From: Minisyncoccota bacterium
GTDB lineage: Bacteria; Patescibacteriota; Minisyncoccia; Phycocordibacterales; CAIJYI01
Reading direction: 5' to 3'
Length of the DNA: 64,000 nt
NCBI GenBank assembly: GCA_023229825.1
Contig: JALNYN010000005.1
Coordinates: 1,933-65,932 of the forward strand
Shown: piece by piece, positions 11,449 to 63,995 of the stretch
Position numbering within the stretch: position 1 is the stretch's first letter
Layout of the letters: each line of letters begins with the position of its first letter
Notes under the pieces: model-generated
Seen by the model: only the letters and a program-made list of their open reading frames with translations
What the model was told of the DNA's origin: nothing
The model's database searches: none
Made by a program: the position numbers and the translations under genes

Positions 11449-12881
11449 TGGTGGCTTCTCGGGCGGCTTTCGTTCATTCCTTCGCCGGTGATGCGTACGA
11501 ACTCGGCTTTTTTCCAGAATTCTTTTATGTTGCGCGCTCCCGTATAGCTCATTCCCGATTGGAGACCGTCGAGCAGGCCCTGAAGGATTTTTCGCACTTC
11601 GCCTTTGAATGTGACGCGATAGCCGATGCCTTCGGGTGTTCGATCTTGGCGATCGGAATCTTTGTCGCCGCGCAAAACCATATCGATCGACGCGTCGCGC
11701 GATGCCAGTCCGCGATAGATCTTAAAGGCTTCGCCTCCTTCGATATAATATTCTCCCGGCGATTCTTTCGAACCGGAGAACAGATTGCCGATCATGACCG
11801 TTCCCGCGCCCGCTGCGATGGCTTTTGCCAGATCGCCGGAATTTTTTATGCCTCCATCCGCAATGATGGGGATCTTGAATTTATTCGCCGCTTTTGCGCA
11901 TTCAAGGACGGCGGTGAGCTGGGGAACTCCGGAACCGGCAACTATGCGGGTAGAGCAAGCTGCACCGGGACCGATGCCGATCTTTATCGCGTCAGCGCCC
12001 GCCCGTATGAGATCGATCGTTCCTTCCGCGGTGGCGACATTTCCGGCTACGATATCTATTGATGGAAATTTTTTCTTTAATTTTTTGACGAGATCAATGC
12101 AGGTATTATGATGTCCATGCGCAATATCAATGACGAGCGCATCCACGCCGGCGGCAACAAGAAGTTCTGCGCGTTCCATCCCGTCTTTTACTCCGATCGC
12201 TGCACCGACCAAGAGATGTCCGCGTTTATCTTTTGAAGCATGGGGACTTTCTTTTGTTTTCTTATAATCCGATGCTGTGATCAGCCCGGATAATTTCCCG
12301 TTCTTGTCGACGAGCGGCAGTTTTTCGATCTTATGCTTATCGAGGATCTCGAGCGCTTCAATGTTCCCGATATCGCGGTTCGCCGTGATCATTTTTTCTT
12401 TCGGGGTCATGAGCTTCATGACGGAAACGCTGAGATCGGTTTTAAAACGAATATCTCTCGCGGTAAGAATTCCGAGAATATCGCGTTCGGGGGAACACAC
12501 GATCACTCCGGTCACATGATTTTTCGCCATGAGGTCGAGTGCATCGCGCAAGGTCGCTTCTTTTCGGATGGTTATCGGATCATGAATGAAAAGGCTTTCC
12601 GCTCGTTTTACTCGGCGAACTTCATTAGCCTCCTCTTCCGCGCTTTGAAAACGGTGGATGATCCCCATGCCGCCTTCGCGAGCCATATGGATCGCCATTT
12701 CCGCGCCGGTCACGGTATCCATGTTTGCCGAAACGACCGGCACATTGAGTTTGATCCTTCGCGAGAACATGGTCGACAGATCTATCAGTTTGCGCGAAGG
12801 GATATCCGAATAATGCGGGACGAGAAGAACATCGTCGTACGAGAGAGCGAGGCGAAATGGTTCATTGGTTGTGTTTTTCAT
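11442..12881 (-). CDS. guaB: inosine-5'-monophosphate dehydrogenase with tandem CBS domains
   Basis: GGMGIIHR, catalytic Cys loop [14 protein letters not shown] pair; start taken at MKNTTNEPF (ORF track extends to 13007). Confidence 0.9.
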
Positions 12882-38392: not shown

Positions 38393-38546
38393 CTTAACCA
38401 ATGCAACCGACGTCAACATTACAAAAAATATCCCACCGAAAATTTCAGACAAACGGCACCCGGTTTTTTCCGCGCGACACTTTCATATGCAAAAAGAAAC
38501 GTTACAACACGCGTTTATCAAAACAATGGTGCCTGTCCCCATTTTC
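38393..38546. repeat. ~160-bp direct repeat unit H, copy 1 (ends in family-C REP-like hairpin)
   Basis: ttaaccaatgcaaccgac...ttccgcgcgacactttcatatgcaaaaagaaacgttacaacacgcgtttatcaaaacaatggtgcctgtccccatttt; near-identical at 40160-40333, degenerate at 40814-40979. Confidence 0.6.
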
Positions 38547-39674
38547 CACAACTGGATCCCGCCGAAAAGCGTGCGCGTGGTGCAGATCGCCGGATGGGGA
38601 ATACCTGATACCATTCGCGGACTCGAATACAAAGGGAATTTTCACGAACGATGTACCAGCGCGGGGATGAACAGTTTTTGTCACGACGAAGGAACGTTTG
38701 ATTATGCTCCTCTCTTTACGTTCGACGGCGATGGAACAGTGGTTTTTCCGAGTCAGATCGGAATGGCAACGGCGACGGAGATGTATTTTGTGGATTTAAA
38801 TGGGTATAATAATTCGCTCGGTAACTCAACAATAAATTTTCGAAAGGATAGAACGCATGCTTCGGTACTAGAAGTGGGTGATCTGAGAGATTTATTGAAA
38901 AGCATAATTTCAGAAGAAATAAATCCAGCGAATGGTTTGAATTACATTAAAACCAGCATTACTCAGTTAAACACGGGAAGCCTTAAAAAACTCATCCGCC
39001 TTTCCCTTCGTTCCCCCGTAAAAATCGACGTCTTTGACCAGCAAGGAAGCCATATCGGAATTTCCTCAAGCTCAACGCCAAGTTATACACTCTACGATAC
39101 TCAAATGCCGAACTCATATTATTTAGAAATGGGAGAGGGAAAGTATCTCGGTTTTTCGCTTGATTCGACGAAGACGATAAAACTTCAAGGTATAGGAACG
39201 GGAACTTTCACTTTATCATTCGATCAATATCAAGGAGATACCAAGGAAGCGTCTCAAACTTTTACTGATATTCCGGTAAGTACAACGACCAAAGCGACGC
39301 TTTTGATGAGTACTATAAATGATGCTAAGGAACTTTCTCTTGATAATGATGGAAATGGAACAATTGACACGATTGTCTTCACTGACGAAAACAAAGAGAC
39401 GATAACCTTTCAAACTCTGAAAAATGAAATTCTAAAACTTGATTCAAAAGTACGACCTTCTTTGGTCAATCAAGTTTCAACTGCGGAGAAACAATTTGCC
39501 AAAAAGAATTATACCACAACAAAAGCGCTGTTTATTGTTCTTAAAAAAGAAATCAACCTCCTTTCGCAAAAAAAGATAGGGAATAAATGGCAGATTGAGA
39601 AAATTCAGGCATTAAAAATCTTGGCAGTAATTGACGTACTTATCGCTCAAATGGATGAGTTTGTTCATCGCTGA
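38487..39674 (+). CDS. paralog of the C-terminal ~400 aa of the giant protein (lacks signal peptide, beta-helix and hydrolase parts)
   Basis: HNWIPPKSVRVVQIAGWG / LSLRSPVKIDVFDQQGSH / GTGTFTLSFDQ / LDNDGNGTIDTIVF align with residues ~1000-1397 of 33727..37920. Confidence 0.5.
   Translation: MQKETLQHAFIKTMVPVPIFHNWIPPKSVRVVQIAGWGIPDTIRGLEYKGNFHERCTSAGMNSFCHDEGTFDYAPLFTFDGDGTVVFPSQIGMATATEMYFVDLNGYNNSLGNSTINFRKDRTHASVLEVGDLRDLLKSIISEEINPANGLNYIKTSITQLNTGSLKKLIRLSLRSPVKIDVFDQQGSHIGISSSSTPSYTLYDTQMPNSYYLEMGEGKYLGFSLDSTKTIKLQGIGTGTFTLSFDQYQGDTKEASQTFTDIPVSTTTKATLLMSTINDAKELSLDNDGNGTIDTIVFTDENKETITFQTLKNEILKLDSKVRPSLVNQVSTAEKQFAKKNYTTTKALFIVLKKEINLLSQKKIGNKWQIEKIQALKILAVIDVLIAQMDEFVHR
38525..38545 (+). 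repeat. family-C REP-like hairpin (aatggtgcctgtccccatt)
   Basis: AATGG...CCATT stem with tgcctg loop; coincides with codons MVPVPIF of downstream ORF and with the start of homology to the giant protein. Confidence 0.5.
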
Positions 39675-40166: not shown

Positions 40167-40333
40167 AACGTGAGAAAATTTTAACCAATGCAACCGACAG
40201 TAACATTACAAAAAACATCCAACAGAAAATTTCAGACAAACGGCGTCCGATTTTTTCCGCGCGACACTTTTATATGCAAAAAGAAACGTTACAACACGCG
40301 TTTATCAAAACAATGGTGCCTGTCCCCATTTTC
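40160..40333. repeat. direct repeat unit H, copy 2
   Basis: Starts within the last codons of paralog 2 and runs through a second copy of the MQKETLQHAFIKTMVPVPIF start and REP-C hairpin. Confidence 0.6.
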
Positions 40334-40372
40334 GCTTTGTTTGAAAGATTAAAAGAGATAATTATGAAATAA
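40274..40372 (+). pseudogene. truncated remnant of a 38487-type gene (first 20 codons identical, then stop)
   Basis: MQKETLQHAFIKTMVPVPIF identical to N-terminus of 38487..39674, followed by 12 unrelated codons and a stop. Confidence 0.45.
40312..40330 (+). repeat. family-C REP-like hairpin
   Basis: aatggtgcctgtccccatt. Confidence 0.5.
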
Positions 40373-55674: not shown

Positions 55675-58146
55675 ATGACAGAAACAGGATTGAGAAAAAA
55701 ACGGCTCAAAATTAAGATACAGGGCACCGTACAAGGCGTCGGATTCCGACCTTTTGTGTTGCGGCTTGCTGAGAAACTGGGTGTTTTAGGCTGGGTTATT
55801 AACGGCGTTCGAGGCGTTGAGATCGCTGCAGAGGCGGATGTGATAGACCTTCTTGAATTTGCCCGGTGCGTTGTAGATCATGCTCCCGAAGTGGCGGCGA
55901 TCGATTTCGTGGAATATTCGTATCTCGACGATACGGAAAAATATGAAAAATTCGAAATTCGCGAAAGCGACAATTTTGGAGAAAAAACAGCCTTGGTGCT
56001 TCCCGACTTGGCAACATGTCCGGAGTGCCAAAGCGAAATATTCGACAGAAAAAATCGGCGCTTTCGGTATCCGTTCACGAACTGCACCAACTGCGGTCCG
56101 CGACATTCAATTATCGAACGGGTCCCGTATGATCGCCCGAATACATCGATGAAAGTTTTTCCGATGTGTCCGGAATGCGAGAAAGAATACAACGATCCTG
56201 CGAATCGCAGGTTCTATGCACAGCCGAACGCATGCCCAGTTTGCGGTCCGCATTTGGTACTGCTGGATCAAAATGGAAAAGATCTCGCAACTCGAGATAG
56301 TGCGCTTCGTATGGCAGAAGAATATATTGATTACGGAAAAGTCGTCGCCTTAAAAGGGCTTGGCGGTTTTCAATTGATAGTCGATGCCATTAATCCGATC
56401 GCGATCAAAAAGTTGCGCGAGAGAAAGGGACGGCCAGGACAAAAACCGTTTGCGGTTATGTATCCGAACATTGAACTGGTAAAAGCGCATTGCGAAGTTT
56501 CGATGGAAGAAGAAAAACTTCTTTTGTCCCGACAATCGCCGATCGTGCTTTTAAAGAGGAAGGACCGTCCTTCCGAAGTTGAGAAAGTTCCACATAAAGA
56601 TATCGCTCCCGATAGCAACGTTCTCGGCGTGATGCTTCCATACACTCCGCTTCATCATCTATTGATGGCGGATCTCGGTTTTCCGATCGTTGCCACGAGC
56701 GGCAACTTGTCGGACGAGCCTATCATTACGGATGAGGATGAGGCGGTCGTATTGCTTGGACATATTGCGGACGCTTTTCTCGTTCATAATCGCGGTATCG
56801 TTCGTCACGTTGACGATTCGATCGCGAGAGTGATAAACGGGAAGACTGTCATCTTGAGAAGGGCGCGGGGATACGCTCCGATGCCTATAAAAGTCGAAAG
56901 TCGAAAGTCCCTGCTTCGCCAAGGCTATGCAGGGCAAGCACCAGTCGAAAGTACGCCGACGATCGTGGCTTTTGGTCCAGATCTGAAAAATGTGGGGGCG
57001 GTTCTCACCGATGGCAAAGTCTATTTGACACAGCACATCGGCGATATGGGAACCACAGCTTCCGGGGACGCACTTTTGAGATCGATCAACGACACGCTCG
57101 CTTTTCGGGAGAAAAAACCGGAGGCGGTTGTCTGCGATCTGCATCCCGATTACGCATCGACAAGAATGGCGGAAGCGTTTGCCGAGGAACATCACATTCC
57201 TCTCTATCGCGTCCAGCATCACAAAGCGCATATTTTATCCGCAATGACTGAAAATGACATTGTAGGAAAAACAGCGCTCGGTGTGGCTTGGGACGGTACG
57301 GGATACGGCGAAGACGGCACGATCTGGGGCGGAGAATTTTTCCGCGTCAGCGAAACCGGCCTCACGCGCTACGCGCATTTGCGCACTTTCGGTTTGATCG
57401 GCGGCGACAAAGCCGCACGTGAGCCGAGATACTCCGCAGCCGCGATCCTTTATGAGATCTACGGAAAAGAAATTTTCGATTCCGACAGATTCGCATCGGT
57501 GAAAGCGCTGATTGGCGTTGAAAGGAAACTCTTTCCTCAAATGCTGAAAAACAAAATGAACGTCGTTATGACATCCAGTGCCGGAAGATTGTTCGATGCC
57601 GTCGCTTCGATCCTAGATATTTGCCACTCGTCCGATTATGAAGGGCATGCGGCGATACTTTTGGAACAGGCGATCGGCGATGAAACGACCAATGAAAATT
57701 ATGAGATATCCGTCGTAAAAGATGGGGATGAATATATATTTAATTGGGAACCGATGATCCGCGACATCGTATATGAATACGAGTTGGGAATTCGTCCGGG
57801 CGTTATTGCGAAAAAAATTCACAATACGCTCGCGAGGGTGATCGCTCGAATTTTTCTCGTTTCAGGAGAAGGACGGCTTGTTCTTTCCGGCGGATGTTTT
57901 CAAAATAAATATCTGTTGGAAACAACGATAAAAAAACTTGAGGGATATTCGGACGACGGCAGAATATTCACTCAAGGCAAGGTGCCGATGAATGACGGAG
58001 GCATTGCTCTCGGTCAGATCACGGCGGTGTTAGATTCCGTCCGTCATTCCGGACTTGATCCGGAATCCACGTCGGAAACGTTAAATATAGATTCCGGGTC
58101 CATCCTCCGCCAAGGCTACGGCATGGCGCGGCGTTGCCCGGAATGA
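55675..58146 (+). CDS. hypF: [NiFe]-hydrogenase maturation carbamoyltransferase HypF
   Basis: Acylphosphatase domain (IQGTVQGVGFRPFV), two CxxC-x18-CxxC zinc fingers, YrdC and Kae1-like domains; last ~35 codons lie in a family-B repeat. Confidence 0.9.
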   Translation: MTETGLRKKRLKIKIQGTVQGVGFRPFVLRLAEKLGVLGWVINGVRGVEIAAEADVIDLLEFARCVVDHAPEVAAIDFVEYSYLDDTEKYEKFEIRESDNFGEKTALVLPDLATCPECQSEIFDRKNRRFRYPFTNCTNCGPRHSIIERVPYDRPNTSMKVFPMCPECEKEYNDPANRRFYAQPNACPVCGPHLVLLDQNGKDLATRDSALRMAEEYIDYGKVVALKGLGGFQLIVDAINPIAIKKLRERKGRPGQKPFAVMYPNIELVKAHCEVSMEEEKLLLSRQSPIVLLKRKDRPSEVEKVPHKDIAPDSNVLGVMLPYTPLHHLLMADLGFPIVATSGNLSDEPIITDEDEAVVLLGHIADAFLVHNRGIVRHVDDSIARVINGKTVILRRARGYAPMPIKVESRKSLLRQGYAGQAPVESTPTIVAFGPDLKNVGAVLTDGKVYLTQHIGDMGTTASGDALLRSINDTLAFREKKPEAVVCDLHPDYASTRMAEAFAEEHHIPLYRVQHHKAHILSAMTENDIVGKTALGVAWDGTGYGEDGTIWGGEFFRVSETGLTRYAHLRTFGLIGGDKAAREPRYSAAAILYEIYGKEIFDSDRFASVKALIGVERKLFPQMLKNKMNVVMTSSAGRLFDAVASILDICHSSDYEGHAAILLEQAIGDETTNENYEISVVKDGDEYIFNWEPMIRDIVYEYELGIRPGVIAKKIHNTLARVIARIFLVSGEGRLVLSGGCFQNKYLLETTIKKLEGYSDDGRIFTQGKVPMNDGGIALGQITAVLDSVRHSGLDPESTSETLNIDSGSILRQGYGMARRCPE

Positions 58147-58147
58147 C
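58043..58147. repeat. family-B REPIN-like element, copy 9 (long subtype) overlapping hypF 3' end
   Basis: cgtcattccggacttgatccggaatccacgtc ... attccgggtccatcctccgccaaggctacggcatggcgcggcgttgcccggaatgac. Confidence 0.6.
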
Positions 58148-58167
58148 AAAGTAAAGGAGGTGATGAT

Positions 58168-58395
58168 ATGTGTTTATCTATACCGGGAAAAATCGTTGCT
58201 ATTGAAGGCAATGAACCTTTCCGCACAGCCAAAGTGAATTTTGGAGGGGCGATAAAAGGCGACATTTCGCTTTTGTTTTGCCCCGGTGCGAAAGTCGACG
58301 ATTATTGCCTGACTCATGCGGGCAATGCGCTTGAAATAATCGATGAAGCGCTTGCGCTTGAAACGATCACATTGCTGCAAAGCGTCAGGAGATAA
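58168..58395 (+). CDS. hypC: hydrogenase maturation factor HypC
   Basis: N-terminal MCLSIPGK (essential Cys2). Confidence 0.85.
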   Translation: MCLSIPGKIVAIEGNEPFRTAKVNFGGAIKGDISLLFCPGAKVDDYCLTHAGNALEIIDEALALETITLLQSVRR

Positions 58396-58397
58396 CG

Positions 58398-59552
58398 ATG
58401 AAATATATTGACGAATTTCGCGACAAGGAAGTTGCGAAGGGGGTGATCGCCGAGATCAAAAGAACGGTCGAGGAGATCAAACAAAACCCTGAAATAAAAT
58501 TGCCGATTCGCATAATGGAAATTTGCGGAGGGCAAACCCATTCGATCTTACAGTACGGTATCCATTCGGCGCTTCCCGAGGAGGTGGAATTTGTCCACGG
58601 TCCGGGATGTCCCGTTTGCGTTACTCCCATTGAAACCATCAACCTTGCTCTGGAACTCGCGAAACAGCCGAACGTGATCTTCACGTCCTTCGGCGACATG
58701 CTGCGCGTTCCCGGCTCGGATGAAAATATGTTTGAAGCAAAAGCGAAAGGAGCCGACATTCGGTGGGTGCGGTATTCTCCAACTGAAGCGGTCGAGATCG
58801 CGAAACAAAATCCCGACAAAGAAGTCATATTTTTTGCCATCGGATTTGAAACCACAACGGCCCCGATCACCGCAGCGCTCCATAGAGCAGAAACGGACGG
58901 AGTGAAAAACTTCTCGATCCTTCCCGCCATGGTTCGCGTTCCTCCCGCGCTCGAAGTAATTTTGAGCGATCCGGAATGCGTTGTTGACGGCATTCTCGCC
59001 GCCGGCCACGTGTGTACGGTTATGGGCACGGAAGAATACGAACCGCTCGTCCAAAAATACGGCGTTCCGATCGTGGTTACCGGTTTTCAGCCGGTAGACA
59101 TTTTGAACGGCACGCTTATGGTCTTGAAACAGTTGAGAGACGGTCGAAGTGAAATTGAAAATGCTTACGGATGGGTGGCTCGCGCTTCGGGCAATACCGT
59201 GGCAAAAACACTCATTGATAAGTATTTCAAGATAATCGATCGAAAATGGCGCGGTATCGGAACAATACCAAATAGCGGTTTCGGACTTCGCGATGAATAT
59301 CTTCATTACGATGCCGAACTGAAATGGAAAAATATAGATGCCCGAAAAGAACCCGAACCCAATGCATATTGCGGTCTCGTTCTGATGGGGAAAATTAAAC
59401 CAACAGAGTGTCCTTTTTTCAGAAAGGAATGTTCGCAAGAGCATCCTATCGGGGCGCTTATGGTTTCCTCGGAGGGCGCATGCGCGGCATACTTTTTGTA
59501 TCAGCAGGACATTAGCCCTTCGACAAGCTCAGGGCAAGGAGAAACTAAATGA
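58398..59552 (+). CDS. hypD: hydrogenase maturation factor HypD
   Basis: GPGCPVC, CGG...C, C-terminal CxxC-rich Fe-S motifs. Confidence 0.9.
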   Translation: MKYIDEFRDKEVAKGVIAEIKRTVEEIKQNPEIKLPIRIMEICGGQTHSILQYGIHSALPEEVEFVHGPGCPVCVTPIETINLALELAKQPNVIFTSFGDMLRVPGSDENMFEAKAKGADIRWVRYSPTEAVEIAKQNPDKEVIFFAIGFETTTAPITAALHRAETDGVKNFSILPAMVRVPPALEVILSDPECVVDGILAAGHVCTVMGTEEYEPLVQKYGVPIVVTGFQPVDILNGTLMVLKQLRDGRSEIENAYGWVARASGNTVAKTLIDKYFKIIDRKWRGIGTIPNSGFGLRDEYLHYDAELKWKNIDARKEPEPNAYCGLVLMGKIKPTECPFFRKECSQEHPIGALMVSSEGACAAYFLYQQDISPSTSSGQGETK

Positions 59553-60592
59553 CTTATAGTTTAGAATGCCCTGTGACGGGGTACAAAGAGACGGATGTCG
59601 TCACCATGGCCCACGGATCGGGCGGAGAGAGCATGCAAAAGCTCATCAGTGAAATGTTCGCAAAGGCGTTTCCCGATCTGCAAGCGGAAGATGATGCGGC
59701 AACTTTTGACGTATCGGGACCGGGGCAGTTCGCGACTAGTATCGATTCCTTCGTGGTTGACCCTATTTTCTTCAAGGGCGGAAATATAGCTTCGCTTTCC
59801 GTTCATGGAACGGTCAATGACTTGGCAATGAAGGGGGCAATGCCGCTTTATCTTAACGTCGCGTTCATTCTTGAGGAAGGACTCCCGTTAAGGCGGTTAA
59901 AATTGCTTGTTTTATTACTCGCAAGGGCAGCAAAAAAAGCTGGCATAAAGATCGTTACGGGCGATACGAAGGTCGTACCGAAAGGAAAAGGCGACGGCAT
60001 ATATATAATTACCTCCGGCATCGGCGTAGTCTTCTGCGAGAAAAGTTTGACTCCCGGACCGAAAAAAGTTTCGGTCGGAGACAAAATTATCGTTTCAGGA
60101 GACATCGGCCGACATGGCATGTCGATCATGTCTGCAAGAGAAGGATTTGATCCGCTTCGTTCGGATTCCGCTCCATTGAATGAAATGGTCAAGAGTTTGT
60201 ACGATCGGGATATCAATCCGAAATGTATGCGCGATGCAACACGAGGCGGAGTTGCCGCCGTGCTAAACGAGATAGCGAGAGTGAAAAAAGTTCACATCCG
60301 CATCGATGAGGAGAAAGTTCCCGTCGATGAGGAAATAAAAGGACTTGCAGAAATTCTCGGTTACGATCTGCTGCACGTGGCCAACGAAGGAAGATTTGTT
60401 CTTTTTGTAAAACCGGAAGATGCCGAAAAAACGGTAAAAATTCTCCAAACTTTTAAAGGTGGAGAACAAGCCGCCATCATCGGCGAAGTAGTGAAGGAAC
60501 ACAAAACCGGTTCGGTAACCGCAGAAACCCTTCTCGGCACCGAAAAACCCATACTAATGCCCGCTGGAGAGATCCTCCCGCGCATTTGTTAG
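59549..60592 (+). CDS. hypE: hydrogenase maturation factor HypE
   Basis: AIR-synthase-like fold, C-terminal PRIC motif; 4-bp overlap with hypD. Confidence 0.9.
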   Translation: MTYSLECPVTGYKETDVVTMAHGSGGESMQKLISEMFAKAFPDLQAEDDAATFDVSGPGQFATSIDSFVVDPIFFKGGNIASLSVHGTVNDLAMKGAMPLYLNVAFILEEGLPLRRLKLLVLLLARAAKKAGIKIVTGDTKVVPKGKGDGIYIITSGIGVVFCEKSLTPGPKKVSVGDKIIVSGDIGRHGMSIMSAREGFDPLRSDSAPLNEMVKSLYDRDINPKCMRDATRGGVAAVLNEIARVKKVHIRIDEEKVPVDEEIKGLAEILGYDLLHVANEGRFVLFVKPEDAEKTVKILQTFKGGEQAAIIGEVVKEHKTGSVTAETLLGTEKPILMPAGEILPRIC

Positions 60593-60656: not shown

Positions 60657-60700
60657 TTTCAAGGATTTGTGCTATGATAGCCAGTGTAAATCGAGATATT

Positions 60701-60770
60701 GGGGTGTAGTGTAATGGTAACACGCCTGCCTTTGAAGCAGGAGACTCTTGGTTCGAGCCCAAGCGCCCCA
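60701..60770 (+). tRNA. tRNA-Gln (anticodon TTG)
   Basis: Acceptor GGGGTGT/GCGCCCC (two G-U pairs), anticodon stem CCTGC/GCAGG with loop CTTTGAA, T-arm CTTGG-TTCGAGC-CCAAG; CCA not encoded. Confidence 0.7.
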
Positions 60771-60847
60771 GCACGCAAAAAATTACCTCGCAAAGGAGTA
60801 TCTTTTGCAGGTGATTTTTGTGTAAATTATTAGCATACGGATTTTAA

Positions 60848-60869
60848 AAAGAATGAGTGCCTGACTACC
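60848..60869 (+). repeat. family-C REP-like hairpin (degenerate)
   Basis: aaagaatgagtgcctgactacc between tRNA-Gln and ATPase gene. Confidence 0.45.
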
Positions 60870-60903: not shown

Positions 60904-62625
60904 ATGATTAAGAAGATTACCTTAGAAAATTTTCGATGTTTTCAGAAACATACATTATGCTTCCGGGACTTAACGGTTATTGTTGGTAAAAACAATGCAG
61001 GAAAATCCACTATTGTTGAAGCGTTGCGTTTAATTTCTTTAGTAACAAATAGGTACAGAAAACTTCCATATAAAATGCCTCCCGATTGGACTGATTTACC
61101 TAAAAAGTGTTTAGGAGTGAGTCCTTCTATAAAAGGACTGGATATTGGTTTAAATGGGTTATTTTTTCAAAACAACGATGGACCAGCAAAAATAACTGTT
61201 TTTTTTGATAATAACGCAAAAATCGATTTAATGATTGGAGAAAAAGCTGAGTTGTTCGCGTTAATATTTGACAGTCAGGGTAAGATTATTTTAAATAAAT
61301 CACAGGCGTTAATAAATGAGATGTCAGAAATAAACATTCTTCCTCAAATTGGTCCATTAAAAGACAAGGAGGATTTGCTTACTGAAGAATATGTGAAATA
61401 TAATATTTTTTCAAATCTCGCGTCCTTACATTTTCGAAACCAACTGATTCATCTCGGACAGTACTTTAATAAATTTAAAGAACTTTCAGAAAGTAGTTGG
61501 GAAGGTTTAAAAATAATTAGGTTTGAAAAAGGAAGTCAGTTAAATGATGAACCACCTTTTTTGCTCGTAGAAGATAGCAACTTTATTGGAGAGATTGCAA
61601 CAATGGGGCACGGCTTACAAATGTGGCTACAAACGATGTGGTTTCTCGCGAGATGTGATAAAAATTCAATCGTAATATTAGATGAGCCAGATGTTTATCT
61701 TCATGCAGATATGCAAAGAAATCTTATTAACTTCTTTAGGTGTAAATTTAAACAGGCGATAATAGCAACACATTCGATTGAAATCATTTCGGATGTTGAA
61801 CCGCTTAATATTTTGGTGGTAAAAAGAGAAAATAACGAGTCTGTGTTTCTAGATGGTGTTCCCGGGGTACAACAAATTATTGAGAGTTTGGGGAGCGTGC
61901 ATAATTTAGAATTAATCCGCTATTGGTCGGCAAAAAAATTCATATTTTTAGAAGGAAAAAAAGATGATCTTAAAATACTAGAAATCCTTCAAAAATTGTT
62001 CACCCTCAGTCCCCTGAATCTTTCTTCGATACCAGTAGGGTACACAGATGGGTGGTCTGGGTGGGAAAGAGTAATTGGACTGAACATAGGTCTTAAGAAT
62101 ACTGGAGTAGAAACATATTGTGTATTTGACTCTGACTATCATTTACCCGACGAAATCGAAAACAGATTGTTGAGTGCAGGGAAAAATAACATAAAAATTC
62201 ATATTTGGGATAAAAAAGAAATAGAGAATTATCTCATAATTCCCGCCGCCGTACTAAGGTATATTAAAAAACAGGCACATATAGGAAACCCAACACTACA
62301 ACTTATCAACAGTAAGGTATTAGGAATAGCCGAAGAGATAAAAAATGATATTGTGGATAATATTTCTGATGAAATAAAGAAAAGCGATCGCGGATTAAGC
62401 GTATCTACATGTAATAAAAAAGCAAGAGAAATGGTAAATACAAAATGGCAGCATCCTGATGATATTTTAACTATTATTCCAGGAAAACAAGTATTATCTT
62501 CTCTTAGCGATTGGTCTAAGCAGGAATTCAATGTATCTTTCAGTAAATTTCAAATTGCTAGTGAGCTTATTGAGTCTGAAATTAATAACGAGATAATTCG
62601 TGTTTTGAAATTTCTTCAAACTTGA
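60904..62625 (+). CDS. OLD-family-like protein: N-terminal ABC-type ATPase fused to C-terminal Toprim-like nuclease domain
   Basis: ITLENFRCF + Walker A GKNNAGKST, Q-loop, signature-like GHGLQ, Walker B ILDEPDVYLH, H-loop ATHS; C-terminal FIFLEGKKDD (Glu) and CVFDSDYH (DxD) spaced as in Toprim. Confidence 0.65.
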   Translation: MIKKITLENFRCFQKHTLCFRDLTVIVGKNNAGKSTIVEALRLISLVTNRYRKLPYKMPPDWTDLPKKCLGVSPSIKGLDIGLNGLFFQNNDGPAKITVFFDNNAKIDLMIGEKAELFALIFDSQGKIILNKSQALINEMSEINILPQIGPLKDKEDLLTEEYVKYNIFSNLASLHFRNQLIHLGQYFNKFKELSESSWEGLKIIRFEKGSQLNDEPPFLLVEDSNFIGEIATMGHGLQMWLQTMWFLARCDKNSIVILDEPDVYLHADMQRNLINFFRCKFKQAIIATHSIEIISDVEPLNILVVKRENNESVFLDGVPGVQQIIESLGSVHNLELIRYWSAKKFIFLEGKKDDLKILEILQKLFTLSPLNLSSIPVGYTDGWSGWERVIGLNIGLKNTGVETYCVFDSDYHLPDEIENRLLSAGKNNIKIHIWDKKEIENYLIIPAAVLRYIKKQAHIGNPTLQLINSKVLGIAEEIKNDIVDNISDEIKKSDRGLSVSTCNKKAREMVNTKWQHPDDILTIIPGKQVLSSLSDWSKQEFNVSFSKFQIASELIESEINNEIIRVLKFLQT

Positions 62626-62637
62626 GGAAATTTTAGT

Positions 62638-62661
62638 CAGAATGGGTGCCTGACCCCGATT
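62638..62661 (+). repeat. family-C REP-like hairpin
   Basis: cagaatgggtgcctgaccccgatt. Confidence 0.5.
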
Positions 62662-62710
62662 CTACTTATTCAAAATTCATGTACTAATGATTTAATCGGA
62701 TTGAAAAAAA

Positions 62711-63217
62711 ATGGATTGGGAAACCTTTATTATTGCTATACTTGGATCTGGTGCTGTTACCGCGCTTGTTAATGTATGGATGAATCACCGAACTCAAATT
62801 CGCGCAATAAAAGAGTCGGGGCTATATTCAAAACGAGCCGAAGTATTAGATGAAATAATGAAAAGAATGGAGGAACTCCATCGAATTATGGGGGAACTCG
62901 TTTCTTTTTTTCAAGATGACGGGTCGGCTGATGCTGAAAAAGCCCGACGTAAAAAAACAGCCGAGGCGTTTAATTGTTTTTTGGAGTATCTCAAGAGAAA
63001 TAGGCACTATTTACCACGGAAATTATCCGAGGAAATACAACACCTCTGCGATGAATATAAAGAGTTATTTATGAGTTTTTCTTTTGAAGCAAGGCCAGAA
63101 GAGGGGAGGTCAGACCTTAAAAAATGGAAATCGCTTATTGATAGGTACGATATGGATTTTACAGATCAACAGGAATGTATAGCCGACGAGTTTAGAAAAA
63201 TAATCGGTGTTAAATAA
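62711..63217 (+). CDS. hypothetical protein with N-terminal TM helix and helical cytoplasmic domain (partner of the ATPase-nuclease gene)
   Basis: FIIAILGSGAVTALVNVW hydrophobic helix, then charged helical region; no recognisable motif. Confidence 0.4.
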   Translation: MDWETFIIAILGSGAVTALVNVWMNHRTQIRAIKESGLYSKRAEVLDEIMKRMEELHRIMGELVSFFQDDGSADAEKARRKKTAEAFNCFLEYLKRNRHYLPRKLSEEIQHLCDEYKELFMSFSFEARPEEGRSDLKKWKSLIDRYDMDFTDQQECIADEFRKIIGVK

Positions 63218-63228
63218 TAGGTAATGGT

Positions 63229-63247
63229 AATGGGGTCAGGCACTATT
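63229..63247 (-). repeat. family-C REP-like hairpin, inverted orientation, immediately upstream of RAYT
   Basis: aatggggtcaggcactatt = reverse complement of aatagtgcctgaccccatt. Confidence 0.55.
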
Positions 63248-63261
63248 GTTTTTAAAAAAGT

Positions 63262-63957
63262 ATGATACAATATTCTCCTATGCCAAGAAATGAAAGAGTT
63301 GATGTCGGGGGTGAAGTCTATCACGTCATAAACAGAGGAAATGGCAGGCAGACTATTTTCCAAAATGAAGAAGACTATCTTCTTTTTGAATCACTGCTTG
63401 AACACGCAAAGGAATTTATTGTGGATATGAGAATCATCGCTTATACGATTATGCCGAATCATTGGCATCTTGTTTTGTATCCAAAAAAGGACGGTGATCT
63501 TTCTCTCTTTATGCACTGGCTTACGACAAGCCACACCCGAAAACATCATGTCATGAAAGAAAATATCGGTGGCGGGCATCTCTATCAAGGAAGATACAAA
63601 TCATTTCTTGTGGATACGGACAGTTATTTTCTCTCTGTTTTTAAATACGTAGAAAGAAATCCGATGAGGGCAAAGTTGACGGAAAATTGTGAAGATTGGC
63701 GATGGGGAAGTTCGTGGAGAAGATCGAACGGTTCGGAAAAAGAGAAAAAATTGCTTTCCTCGCCGCTCGTTGATTTTCCGGAAAAATACAGCGTATGGAT
63801 AAACAAACCGGAAAAAGAAGATGATGTTGTAAAGATCAGAAATTCGATAAATAAAGGAGTACCGTATGGTCGCGATATTTGGAGTATGGATATGGTTGAA
63901 AAATATGAATTGTCTTCATCGCTGAATAAGCCGGGGAGACCGAAGAAAAAACATTAG
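63262..63957 (+). CDS. REP-associated tyrosine transposase (RAYT; IS200/IS605-like Y1 HuH transposase family)
   Basis: HuH motif IMPNHWHLVL and catalytic Tyr context YQGRYKSFLVDTDSYFLSVFKYVERNPMRA; flanked by inverted REP-C hairpins. Confidence 0.8.
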   Translation: MIQYSPMPRNERVDVGGEVYHVINRGNGRQTIFQNEEDYLLFESLLEHAKEFIVDMRIIAYTIMPNHWHLVLYPKKDGDLSLFMHWLTTSHTRKHHVMKENIGGGHLYQGRYKSFLVDTDSYFLSVFKYVERNPMRAKLTENCEDWRWGSSWRRSNGSEKEKKLLSSPLVDFPEKYSVWINKPEKEDDVVKIRNSINKGVPYGRDIWSMDMVEKYELSSSLNKPGRPKKKH

Positions 63958-63972
63958 AACATGAAAATTACA

Positions 63973-63995
63973 AAAGAATGGTGCCTGACCCCATT
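63973..63995 (+). repeat. family-C REP-like hairpin, direct orientation, immediately downstream of RAYT
   Basis: aaagaatggtgcctgaccccatt. Confidence 0.55.

What the first reader, a model, noticed from the sequence alone, without database searches (positions are those of the whole stretch)
60904..63217. Candidate two-gene defense module: OLD/GajA/PARIS-like ATPase-Toprim protein paired with a 168-aa membrane-anchored protein
The 573-aa protein has a complete ABC-ATPase motif set (Walker A GKNNAGKST, Walker B ILDEPDVYLH, H-loop). Its C-terminal region has an invariant Glu (FLEGKKDD) and a DxD (VFDSDYH) arranged as in Toprim nucleases of OLD-family anti-phage proteins. The partner is a single-TM helical protein of unknown family 86 nt downstream, not a GajB-like helicase. 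That pairing is not a described architecture to my knowledge; the partner might be a membrane effector or sensor. The location, tRNA-adjacent and bracketed by REP hairpins next to a transposase, is typical of defense islands.
Basis: partly seen in the sequence, partly recalled or inferred. Interest (0 to 1): 0.75.

Follow-up and report, generated by a model that had tools for sequence, protein, structure and literature searches.

The report
PARIS/OLD-like nuclease beside unrelated membrane gene
The 573-aa gene is an ordinary single-gene member of the known OLD/PARIS ATPase-Toprim anti-phage nuclease kind, and the small membrane protein next to it is not its partner: elsewhere that protein sits inside restriction-modification operons.

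Summary
Both ORFs and all cited motifs are real. The 573-aa protein has an ABC ATPase head and a C-terminal Toprim. Its acidic residues (E350, D355, D409, D411, E439/E441) are invariant or nearly so in 33 homologues.

The C-terminal domain alone matches PARIS profiles: AriAB in 18/18 members and AriB in 12/18. It rarely matches Old or GajA. I read it as a compact single-chain PARIS-like (OLD-family) protein from a large family (more than 2,800 hits) that public sources already label ATP-dependent endonuclease or nuclease, in places OLD family.

None of 7 independent loci with an ATPase homologue holds a relative of the 168-aa protein. None of about 12 independent loci with a 168-aa homologue holds the ATPase.

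The 168-aa protein has an N-terminal hydrophobic helix and a four-helix bundle, and matches no family in four libraries. It usually lies between hsdM and hsdS of type I R-M operons.

In the window the genes sit in a ~3.7-kb low-GC islet after tRNA-Gln. REP-like repeats separate every gene, one of them in the 85-nt spacer, and a RAYT transposase follows.

Verdict: new member of a known kind; the pairing is incidental.

The parts
60700..60772 (+). tRNA-Gln(UUG); left edge of the low-GC islet
   Evidence: ARAGORN; Rfam tRNA, 69.6 bits; GC drops from ~48% to ~33% immediately downstream.
60857..60868 (+). REP-like repeat copy 1 (core GTGCCTGACTAC), upstream of the ATPase gene
   Evidence: Pattern search: 6 copies in the window against 0.26 expected. 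Alignment gives a consensus of about 25 nt. Hairpin not better than shuffles.
60904..62625 (+). 573-aa single-chain ABC ATPase-Toprim protein (PARIS/AriAB-like, OLD family)
   Evidence: ORF. Pfam AAA_15 5e-26 and AAA_21 8e-18. PADLOC AriA 2.8e-25 and AriAB 5.4e-24. The start codon is supported by the family N-terminus MIKK..L.NYRCF. AF2 model mean pLDDT 87.6.
60904..61893 (+). ABC ATPase head (aa 1-330). Walker A at 60985-61011, Q-loop at 61339-61356, signature-like MGHGLQ at 61603-61620, Walker B/D-loop at 61669-61704, H-loop at 61765-61776
61930..62238 (+). Toprim core (aa 343-445). E350 at 61951-61953, D355, D409-x-D411 at 62128-62136, K438-E-I-E-N442 at 62215-62229
   Evidence: In the AF2 model E350 follows strand 345-349 and D409 follows strand 403-408, in a beta-alpha-beta-alpha-beta-alpha-beta pattern. 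Residue invariance. C-terminal domains alone hit PADLOC AriAB in 18/18 members (best 3e-14) and AriB in 12/18 (best 2.8e-12). For the window protein itself, Pfam OLD-like_TOPRIM reaches only E 0.02-0.07, below the cut-off.
62239..62622 (+). C-terminal all-helical region (aa 446-573) that follows the Toprim core
   Evidence: AF2 helices 447-572 with pLDDT around 90 or above. The PADLOC AriAB match extends to about aa 505. Conserved A507, G527, K528, E559 and E563.
62646..62657 (+). REP-like repeat copy 2, inside the 85-nt spacer between the two genes
   Evidence: This is the only copy whose hairpin beats shuffles (z = -2.1).
62711..63217 (+). 168-aa protein: N-terminal hydrophobic helix (aa 6-24, nt 62726-62782) plus a four-helix bundle (aa 40-165, nt 62828-63205); undescribed family
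63232..63243 (-). REP-like repeat copy 3, inverted, upstream of the transposase gene
63262..63957 (+). REP-associated tyrosine transposase (RAYT), 231 aa. HUH motif HWH at 63460-63468; Tyr motif YVERNP at 63646-63663
   Evidence: Pfam Y1_Tnp 5e-14. NCBIfam REP_Tyr_transpos 9.3e-16, 58 bits, below that model's curated cut-off of 80. Motif coordinates. Flanked by REP-like copies in inverted orientation.
63981..63992 (+). REP-like repeat copy 4, downstream of the transposase gene. Further copies lie just beyond the window end
   Evidence: On the longer contig there is a tandem copy at L024 11276-11307 and another at 11893-11905.

Best explanation
The region is a ~3.7-kb low-GC islet inserted next to tRNA-Gln. 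It is built of single-gene cassettes separated by REP-like repeats. The cassettes are a stand-alone anti-phage nuclease, an unrelated small membrane-anchored protein, and a RAYT transposase. A fourth small ORF lies just past the window end.

The 573-aa protein is a compact single-chain relative of PARIS (AriA and AriB in one polypeptide), which makes it an OLD-family ABC ATPase-Toprim protein.

Inferred mechanism, by analogy with PARIS and OLD:
- The ABC head dimerises or oligomerises and uses ATP binding and hydrolysis (K34, D260/E261, H290) as a switch that keeps the Toprim domain silent.
- A phage-derived cue flips that switch.
- The two-metal Toprim site (E350, D355, D409, D411, E439/E441) then cuts nucleic acid. 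tRNA is the more likely target because the domain is AriB-like. DNA is the alternative, as in OLD and GajA.
- The cell's growth arrests and the infection aborts.

What is shown: the domain architecture, conservation of the motifs, profile-level homology of both halves to PARIS components, and the single-gene genomic habit. What is inferred: the trigger, the substrate and the defence phenotype.

The 168-aa protein is not a dedicated partner. Its family normally sits tightly packed between a DNA methyltransferase gene and hsdS in type I R-M operons. Here it is an orphan cassette.
For: Both halves are best matched by PARIS profiles:
- The whole protein hits AriA at 2.8e-25 and AriAB at 5.4e-24.
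- The C-terminal 239-246 residues alone hit AriAB at 5e-9 to 8e-9.
- Across 18 family members the C-terminal domain alone hits AriAB in 18/18, AriB in 12/18, Old in 2/18 and GajA in 1/18.
- Pfam DUF4435 is hit by 3 of 33 members (best 1.2e-5) and OLD-like_TOPRIM by 4 of 33.

The acidic residues match AriB in order and spacing. The AriB catalytic set is E26, D30, D88, E90 and E122 (PMC11464382). Here the set is E350, D355, D409, D411 and E439/E441, all invariant or nearly so. The E-to-D gap is 59 residues against 62 in AriB, and the D-to-E gap is 30-32 against 34.

The AF2 model (pLDDT 87.6) places E350 and D409 at the ends of strands 1 and 3 of an alternating strand-helix fold. Merged ariAB genes are a known PARIS variant.

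Single-gene habit: five homologue loci with called genes have no conserved neighbour. Neither those nor two further viral-contig loci hold a relative of the 168-aa protein.

Partner contexts: hsdM-X-hsdS (or M-X-one gene-S) in L004, L005, L007, L010, L021, L023, L027 and L031. In six of these X starts 3-5 nt after hsdM; the gaps are longer in L031 (12 nt), L023 and L021. X abuts or overlaps hsdS in six of them. A 26%-identical relative starts 4 nt after a DPPF-type methylase.

Islet structure: REP-like copies flank each gene, and the GC profile marks the islet.
Against: - The window protein itself does not reach the Pfam cut-off for OLD-like_TOPRIM (14-16 bits against 23.2) and does not hit DUF4435.
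- The C-terminal profile finds no solved Toprim structure by sequence.
- The C-terminal profile against P2 Old or YbjD alone is not significant.
- The full-length fold searches are dominated by the ATPase head, so they do not independently prove a Toprim fold.
- Only about 43% of the AriAB profile is matched. The protein is about 190 residues shorter than AriA plus AriB and has no long coiled-coil insert, so a PARIS-like hexamer-and-release mechanism cannot simply be transferred.
- Some homologues sit among housekeeping genes, so a defence role is not guaranteed.
- No terminator was detected between the two genes, so they may be co-transcribed here.
- Context sampling is small: 7 and about 12 loci, out of more than 2,800 hits and 864 clusters.
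Confidence: 0.62

Rival explanations
1. One reading: the ATPase-Toprim protein and the 168-aa membrane protein form a two-gene defence system. The membrane protein would be the effector or sensor, replacing the GajB helicase or PtuB nuclease of related systems.
For: - The genes are on the same strand, 85 nt apart, with no predicted terminator between them.
- Both lie in the same low-GC islet.
- The arrangement recurs in contigs from two other samples (L025, L026), which carry the same locus.
- One R-M operon that holds a 168-aa homologue also carries an unrelated AAA_15/AAA_21 ATPase (L005).
Against: - The two families do not co-occur in any of 7 ATPase-homologue loci or about 12 loci of 168-aa homologues from other organisms.
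- The families differ greatly in size: more than 2,800 hits against 19 close homologues.
- A REP-like element occupies the spacer, and every gene of the islet is separated from its neighbour in the same way.
- The 168-aa gene is tightly packed with hsdM and hsdS elsewhere.
Confidence: 0.1
2. The 168-aa protein is an accessory of methyltransferase-based restriction systems. It might be a membrane tether for the M2S core, or a second-line effector guarded by it, as PrrC is. The copy here would be an orphan or remnant moved by REP/RAYT-associated rearrangement, with no function tied to the neighbouring nuclease.
For: - Eight independent loci show hsdM-X-hsdS order (two with one extra gene before hsdS). 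In six of them X starts 3-5 nt after hsdM.
- A distant relative directly follows a different methylase, and another precedes an SNF2 helicase.
- Another copy lies between a KAP NTPase-like gene (identified by eye from its P-loop motif) and a putative type II R-M pair.
- Genes embedded in type I R-M operons are often defence genes (Payne et al., bioRxiv 10.1101/2024.01.29.577857; TgvAB, PMC11411939).
- The N-terminal hydrophobic helix is kept in 137 of 169 relatives.
Against: - There is no catalytic-looking motif. Only R42, F161, R162 and G166 stay nearly invariant across the wide family.
- The fold is a generic four-helix bundle.
- Several copies lie outside any R-M operon (the window, L001/L018, L009).
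- No hsd gene is present in the 64-kb window.
- The function is entirely untested.
Confidence: 0.5
3. The ATPase-Toprim protein is not a defence gene. It would be a DNA-maintenance or cell-cycle factor, as reported for the archaeal OLD-family ATPase Cran1.
For: - Some homologues lie among housekeeping genes with no obvious defence neighbours (L017 in Flagellimonas; L038/L039 in Paenibacillus).
- OLD-family proteins with non-defence roles exist (PMC12796447, listed).
- The family is rare in viral contigs and absent from the phage collection.
Against: - The gene is in a low-GC islet at a tRNA gene.
- Other homologues sit beside TIR-domain genes and a recombinase, beside an integrase fragment, or near a type I hsdR.
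- The nearest profiles are all from defence systems.
Confidence: 0.1

Closest known systems
PARIS (AriA ABC ATPase + AriB DUF4435 Toprim tRNase), in particular the merged single-gene ariAB clades; OLD class 4
   Same: - The N-terminal head is best matched by the AriA profile and the C-terminal domain by the AriAB and AriB profiles.
- The five acidic Toprim residues have the same order and spacing as AriB E26, D30, D88, E90 and E122.
- One polypeptide, as in merged ariAB.
   Different: - Only about 43% of the AriAB profile is covered, at 83 bits.
- The protein has 573 aa against roughly 760 for AriA plus AriB, and the model shows no long coiled-coil insert.
- The window protein does not hit Pfam DUF4435.
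- The solved E. coli AriB is not found by sequence.
- Trigger, oligomeric state and substrate are unknown.
Class 1 OLD-family nucleases (P2 Old, Thermus scotoductus OLD, E. coli YbjD, Vibrio cholerae OLD)
   Same: - A single gene with no conserved partner, encoding an ABC ATPase followed by a Toprim domain in about 530-590 aa.
- hhalign of the family profile against P2 Old gives 95% probability, with VEG and DxD in register.
- Foldseek aligns about 540 columns with TsOLD 6p74 (E 1e-12).
- Database names for homologues include 'ATP-dependent endonuclease of the OLD family'.
   Different: - The C-terminal domain alone is not significantly similar to P2 Old or YbjD.
- It hits the PADLOC Old profile in only 2 of 18 members, against 18 of 18 for AriAB.
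- Pfam OLD-like_TOPRIM stays below its cut-off.
Gabija GajA/GajB (class 2 OLD) and Septu or retron PtuA/PtuB
   Same: Related AAA_15/AAA_21 ABC ATPase head (PADLOC GajA about 1e-20 and PtuA about 5e-20; PtuA-type ATPases are the top structural hits).
   Different: - There is no UvrD-like GajB, no HNH PtuB, and no reverse transcriptase or ncRNA next to the gene.
- The matches are confined to the ATPase head.
Genes embedded in type I R-M operons (PrrC, TgvAB, 'guilt-by-embedding' candidates)
   Same: The 168-aa family occupies the hsdM-hsdS junction in most informative loci, as PrrC does.
   Different: - It has no nuclease or NTPase motif and is a small membrane-anchored four-helix bundle.
- It is absent from PADLOC-DB 2.0, Pfam, NCBIfam and PHROGs.
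- In the window it is not in an R-M operon.
REP/RAYT elements
   Same: A Y1 (HUH) transposase of the RAYT type is flanked by inverted copies of a short repeat that is dispersed in the genome.
   Different: - The repeats form only weak hairpins with 5-bp stems.
- Within this window the copies are concentrated in the islet.
- The RAYT match to NCBIfam REP_Tyr_transpos (58 bits) is below that model's cut-off of 80.

Membership tests
OLD-family nuclease (general) | N-terminal ABC-type ATPase with Walker A, Q-loop, signature-like motif, Walker B and H-loop | tested here: met
OLD-family nuclease (general) | C-terminal Toprim domain with a conserved Glu and DxD in the same polypeptide | tested here: met
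   E350 and D409 are invariant and D411 is at least 90% conserved. They lie at strand ends in the AF2 model. The C-terminal domain alone matches the PADLOC AriAB and AriB Toprim profiles. Caveat: Pfam OLD-like_TOPRIM reaches only 14-16 bits against a cut-off of 23.2, and no structural superposition of the isolated domain was possible.
OLD class 1 | Single gene with no conserved adjacent partner | tested here: met
   Five homologue loci with called genes have unrelated neighbours. Two further viral-contig loci were checked only for the 168-aa family.
OLD class 1 | Toprim domain of the Old/TsOLD sequence type | tested here: inconclusive
   The full-length profile against P2 Old gives 95% probability, but the C-terminal domain alone gives E 0.02-0.06. 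The PADLOC Old profile is hit by 2 of 18 C-terminal domains.
OLD class 2 (Gabija) | UvrD/PcrA-like helicase gene (gajB) immediately downstream | tested here: not met
   The downstream gene is a 168-aa helical protein with no helicase motif. In the five homologue loci with called genes, none has an adjacent UvrD-like gene; L016 has a convergent DEAD-box helicase only.
OLD class 3 (retron) | Adjacent reverse transcriptase and msr/msd ncRNA | tested here: not met
   There is no RT ORF in 58-64 kb. Rfam finds only the tRNA.
PARIS / merged AriAB (OLD class 4) | AriA-type AAA_15/21 ATPase | tested here: met
PARIS / merged AriAB (OLD class 4) | AriB-type (DUF4435) Toprim domain with five acidic metal ligands | tested here: met
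   PADLOC AriAB 18/18 and AriB 12/18 on C-terminal domains alone. The acidic residues match AriB in order and spacing. Caveat: Pfam DUF4435 is hit by only 3 of 33 family members and not by the window protein.
PARIS / merged AriAB (OLD class 4) | Full-length match to the AriAB model, including the AriA insertion and coiled-coil regions that build the hexameric scaffold | tested here: not met
   Only profile positions about 1-47 and 329-585 of 694 are matched, at 83 bits. The protein is about 190 aa shorter than AriA plus AriB, and the AF2 model shows no long coiled coil.
PARIS / merged AriAB (OLD class 4) | Activation by phage anti-restriction proteins and cleavage of tRNA | not testable with these tools
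   This needs phage or Ocr challenge and in vitro cleavage assays.
RAYT/REP element | Y1 HUH transposase of the RAYT type flanked by inverted REP copies | tested here: met
   Y1_Tnp 5e-14 (above cut-off) and REP_Tyr_transpos 9e-16 at 58 bits (below its cut-off of 80). HWH and Tyr motifs are present. The motif lies at 63232 (-) and 63981 (+).
Type I R-M embedded gene (for the 168-aa protein) | Located inside an hsdM/hsdS/hsdR operon | tested here: not met
   This holds for homologues in 8 loci but not here. There is no hsdM, hsdS or hsdR in the 64-kb window or in the 10 kb downstream.

The most novel reading that the evidence does not exclude
The 168-aa protein would represent an undescribed, widespread family (864 representative clusters at 50% identity) of membrane-anchored four-helix-bundle proteins. 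These would be genuine components of methyltransferase-based restriction systems, encoded tightly packed between hsdM and hsdS. They might tether the R-M core to the membrane, or act as a second-line sensor or effector that responds when the R-M core is attacked by anti-restriction proteins. On this reading its position beside a PARIS-like (anti-restriction-sensing) nuclease reflects a shared functional theme rather than chance.
Probability: 0.15. Interest if true: 0.6.

Novelty: new member of a known kind. Interest (0 to 1): 0.3.

Why it matters
For the finding as stated, it matters little. The nuclease belongs to a large family that public sources already label ATP-dependent endonuclease or nuclease (in places OLD family), and the supposed new two-gene architecture is an accident of island assembly.

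Two smaller points have some value:

1. This family is a compact, single-chain, AriB-type relative of PARIS that is widespread in Bacteroidota, Paenibacillus and candidate-phyla bacteria. It could show how an ATPase-Toprim protein is regulated without the AriA hexamer and AriB release mechanism, and whether such fused proteins cut tRNA or DNA.

2. The 168-aa family is an unannotated gene that is repeatedly packed between hsdM and hsdS. That makes it a concrete 'guilt-by-embedding' candidate for a new R-M accessory or defence function.

Tried and rejected
- Sequence and profile searches of PDB with the full-length and the C-terminal profiles found no Toprim chain.
- hhalign of the C-terminal profile against P2 Old and E. 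coli YbjD was not significant. The 95% probability for the full-length profile is driven by the ATPase part.
- The fold search of the 168-aa model returned only generic four-helix bundles: designed proteins and TorS/MCP-type sensor domains. I do not read this as a sensor assignment.
- Pfam, NCBIfam, PADLOC and PHROGs gave nothing significant for the 168-aa family or its distant relatives. The weak PtuB (0.003) and ZorA (0.03) hits were dismissed as coiled-coil noise.
A narrower alignment was used instead.
- tblastn of the ATPase protein found no match in the phage collection and only 11 distant matches in plasmids.
- No direct repeat of the tRNA 3' end and no integrase was found, so the islet is not a classical integrase-borne island.
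- Rfam found no ncRNA other than the tRNA.
- The promoter and terminator scan did not exceed chance for promoters and was not informative about co-transcription.
- Literature searches for a gene 'between hsdM and hsdS' found nothing relevant to this family.
Full report
**Observation**

They are separated by 85 nt. tRNA-Gln(UUG) lies 131 nt upstream at 60700-60772. A 231-aa ORF at 63262-63957 follows.

GC content falls from about 48% in the hypF-hypC-hypD-hypE genes to about 33% immediately after the tRNA. On the longer copy of the same contig (L024) it returns to about 48% some 3.7 kb later.

In an alignment of 33 full-length homologues (43-59% identity to the window protein) the functional residues are invariant or nearly so:
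- ATPase head: K34 (Walker A), Q148 (Q-loop), G235/H236/Q239 (signature-like), D260/E261 (Walker B), H290 (H-loop).
- C-terminal half: E350, D355, D409, D411 (at least 90%), H413 and K438-E-I-E-N442.

**The 573-aa protein**

Pfam gives AAA_15 (5e-26) and AAA_21 (8e-18) above their cut-offs, but OLD-like_TOPRIM only at E 0.02-0.07, below its cut-off. PADLOC ranks AriA first (2.8e-25) and the fused AriAB profile second (5.4e-24). The AriAB match covers residues 252-500.

The AlphaFold2 model is confident (mean pLDDT 87.6). After the ABC head it shows strand 345-349 ending at E350, then helix, strand, helix, strand 403-408 ending at D409, helix, strand 431-434, and finally a helical tail. That is the Toprim arrangement.

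hhalign of the family profile against P2 Old gives 95% probability with VEG and DxD in register. The C-terminal part alone against P2 Old or YbjD is not significant, and no solved Toprim chain is found by sequence.

The decisive test was to scan the C-terminal domains alone (residues 335 to the end) of 18 family members against PADLOC:

| Profile | Members hit (of 18) | Best E-value |
|---|---|---|
| AriAB | 18 | 3e-14 |
| AriB | 12 | 2.8e-12 |
| PDC-M55B (candidate) | 16 | 1.1e-6 |
| Old | 2 | 2.6e-4 |
| GajA | 1 | 6.1e-4 |

A few members also reach Pfam DUF4435 (3 of 33, best 1.2e-5).

The AriB catalytic residues E26, D30, D88, E90 and E122 (PMC11464382) correspond in order and spacing to E350, D355, D409, D411 and E439/E441. 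The domain is therefore an AriB/DUF4435-type Toprim. Both halves of the protein are closest to PARIS components.

Merged ariAB genes are a described PARIS variant (two clades), and reviews note they blur the line with class 1 OLD (PMC10568477). This protein is nevertheless not a canonical member:
- Only about 43% of the AriAB profile is matched, at 83 bits.
- It is about 190 residues shorter than AriA plus AriB.
- It has no long coiled-coil insert.

The family is large: more than 2,800 hits of 573-630 aa in Bacteroidota, Paenibacillus, candidate phyla and others. Sources already name it 'ATP-dependent endonuclease/nuclease' or 'OLD family, P-loop ATPase and TOPRIM'.

**The 168-aa protein**

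The word-indexed search found 19 close homologues. An exhaustive profile search found 864 representative clusters of 160-285 aa. These share the C-terminal domain of about 135 aa and usually an N-terminal hydrophobic helix (137 of 169). Across the wide family only R42, F161, R162 and G166 stay nearly invariant, which does not look catalytic.

**Co-occurrence test**

From the partner's side, homologues lie between hsdM and hsdS of type I R-M operons in L004, L005, L007, L010, L021, L023, L027 and L031. In six of these the gene starts 3-5 nt after hsdM (the gaps are longer in L031, L023 and L021), and in six it abuts or overlaps hsdS; L005 and L027 have one extra gene before hsdS. L028 also has an hsdM fragment upstream. 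Other copies lie:
- after an SLFN-like helicase with an S24 peptidase domain (L009);
- between a KAP NTPase-like gene (my reading of its P-loop motif) and a putative type II R-M pair (L019);
- among small unknown ORFs in a Saccharibacteria MAG (L001/L018).

A 26%-identical relative starts 4 nt after a DPPF-type methylase, and a 19%-identical one precedes an SNF2 helicase. None of these loci contains a member of the ATPase family.

From the ATPase's side, the five homologue loci with called genes (L014/15, L016, L017, L036/37, L038/39) have unrelated neighbours. Neither they nor two viral-contig loci (L040, L041) hold a relative of the 168-aa protein, even with the extended profile.

The pairing was seen only at this locus, on the contig that carries the window's genes (L024) and on contigs from two other samples. 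The window has no hsd genes, and none were called in the 10 kb downstream.

**The islet**

A motif of about 25 nt (consensus AAAAcAATGGTGCCTGaCCCCATT) occurs before the ATPase gene (60857), in the spacer between the two genes (62646), inverted before the transposase gene (63232) and after it (63981). More copies lie just past the window end, around the next small ORF. Two further copies are at about 38.5 and 40.3 kb. Six copies compare with 0.26 expected by chance.

The 231-aa protein is a RAYT-type Y1 transposase with HUH and Tyr motifs, although its NCBIfam RAYT score (58 bits) is below that model's cut-off of 80. The hairpins are weak. No integrase and no tRNA-derived direct repeat was found.

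The picture is a mosaic of single-gene cassettes separated by REP-like elements. This fits two independent genes better than an operon, although no terminator separates them.

**Mechanism**

Shown here: architecture, motif conservation, profile-level homology to PARIS components, and the single-gene habit.

Inferred by analogy with PARIS and OLD: the ABC head acts as an ATP-dependent sensor or switch, and the two-metal Toprim site is the effector nuclease. tRNA is the likelier substrate because the domain is AriB-like, with DNA as the alternative. The outcome would be growth arrest and abortive infection.

Because the AriA scaffold regions are missing, the PARIS 'hexamer sequesters and releases AriB' scheme cannot be carried over unchanged. 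In a fused protein, regulation must be intramolecular or act within a homo-oligomer.

For the 168-aa protein the best guess is an accessory or embedded defence function tied to methyltransferase-based restriction systems. This follows the 'guilt-by-embedding' argument and the precedents PrrC and TgvAB. Here it would be an orphan copy.

**Verdict**

The ATPase-Toprim assignment is right and can be sharpened to PARIS/AriAB-like. The 'new two-gene architecture' is not supported. The finding is a new member of a known kind. The only part that is actually unexplored is the 168-aa family embedded in R-M operons, which lies outside the claim as made.

Noticed in passing
L004 6001-6507, L005 6001-6507, L007 6001-6519, L010 1758-2276, L021 8001-8507, L023 1561-2064, L027 4541-5044, L031 7001-7525: Homologues of the 168-aa protein lie between hsdM and hsdS of type I R-M operons. 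Several start 3-5 nt after hsdM and abut or overlap the hsdS start. This is an unannotated gene family (864 clusters in the exhaustive search) that may be an R-M accessory or an embedded defence gene.
   Followed up: partly
L032 44-1994; L033 862-2914: Distant relatives of the 168-aa protein (26% and 19% identity) carry an extra coiled-coil segment. One starts 4 nt after a DPPF-type DNA methylase and the other precedes an SNF2-type helicase. The link to methylase- or helicase-based systems therefore extends beyond type I R-M.
   Followed up: partly
window 38502-38572 and 40289-40359: Two nearly identical 45-nt copies of the REP-like element (core GTGCCTGTCCCC) lie in intergenic spots among genes for a 1397-aa secreted or surface protein, a 395-aa paralogue of its C-terminus, and three paralogous small membrane proteins of about 140-155 aa.
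   Followed up: no
L024 8365-9915 (window about 61075-62625): The public ENA gene call for the ATPase starts at an internal Met (516 aa) and so lacks the Walker A motif. Logan contigs and the family alignment support the 573-aa start at 60904.
   Followed up: yes
window 55675-60592: A complete hypF-hypC-hypD-hypE [NiFe]-hydrogenase maturation cluster lies directly upstream. The one named public copy of the 168-aa protein is assigned to a Candidatus Paceibacterota MAG. If that assignment holds, hydrogenase maturation genes in such a reduced-genome lineage are worth a look.
   Followed up: no
L004 8007-9353; L005 7751-9196: The type I R-M operons that carry the 168-aa homologue also hold other embedded genes: a reverse transcriptase (RVT_1) between hsdS and hsdR in L004, and an AAA_15/AAA_21 ATPase between hsdS and hsdR in L005. 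These operons look like insertion hotspots for defence genes.
   Followed up: no
L014 773-4021 (and L015): The closest homologue of the ATPase-Toprim protein from another organism (59% identity) is preceded by a small HTH gene. It is followed by 73-aa and 98-aa ORFs, a TIR-domain protein and a serine recombinase. This is a different defence-island context, with a possible HTH regulator.
   Followed up: no
L024 11276-11307 and 11893-11905 (just beyond the window end): More REP-like copies, one of them tandem, flank the next 152-aa ORF. Every gene of the low-GC islet is thus separated from its neighbours by this repeat.
   Followed up: partly
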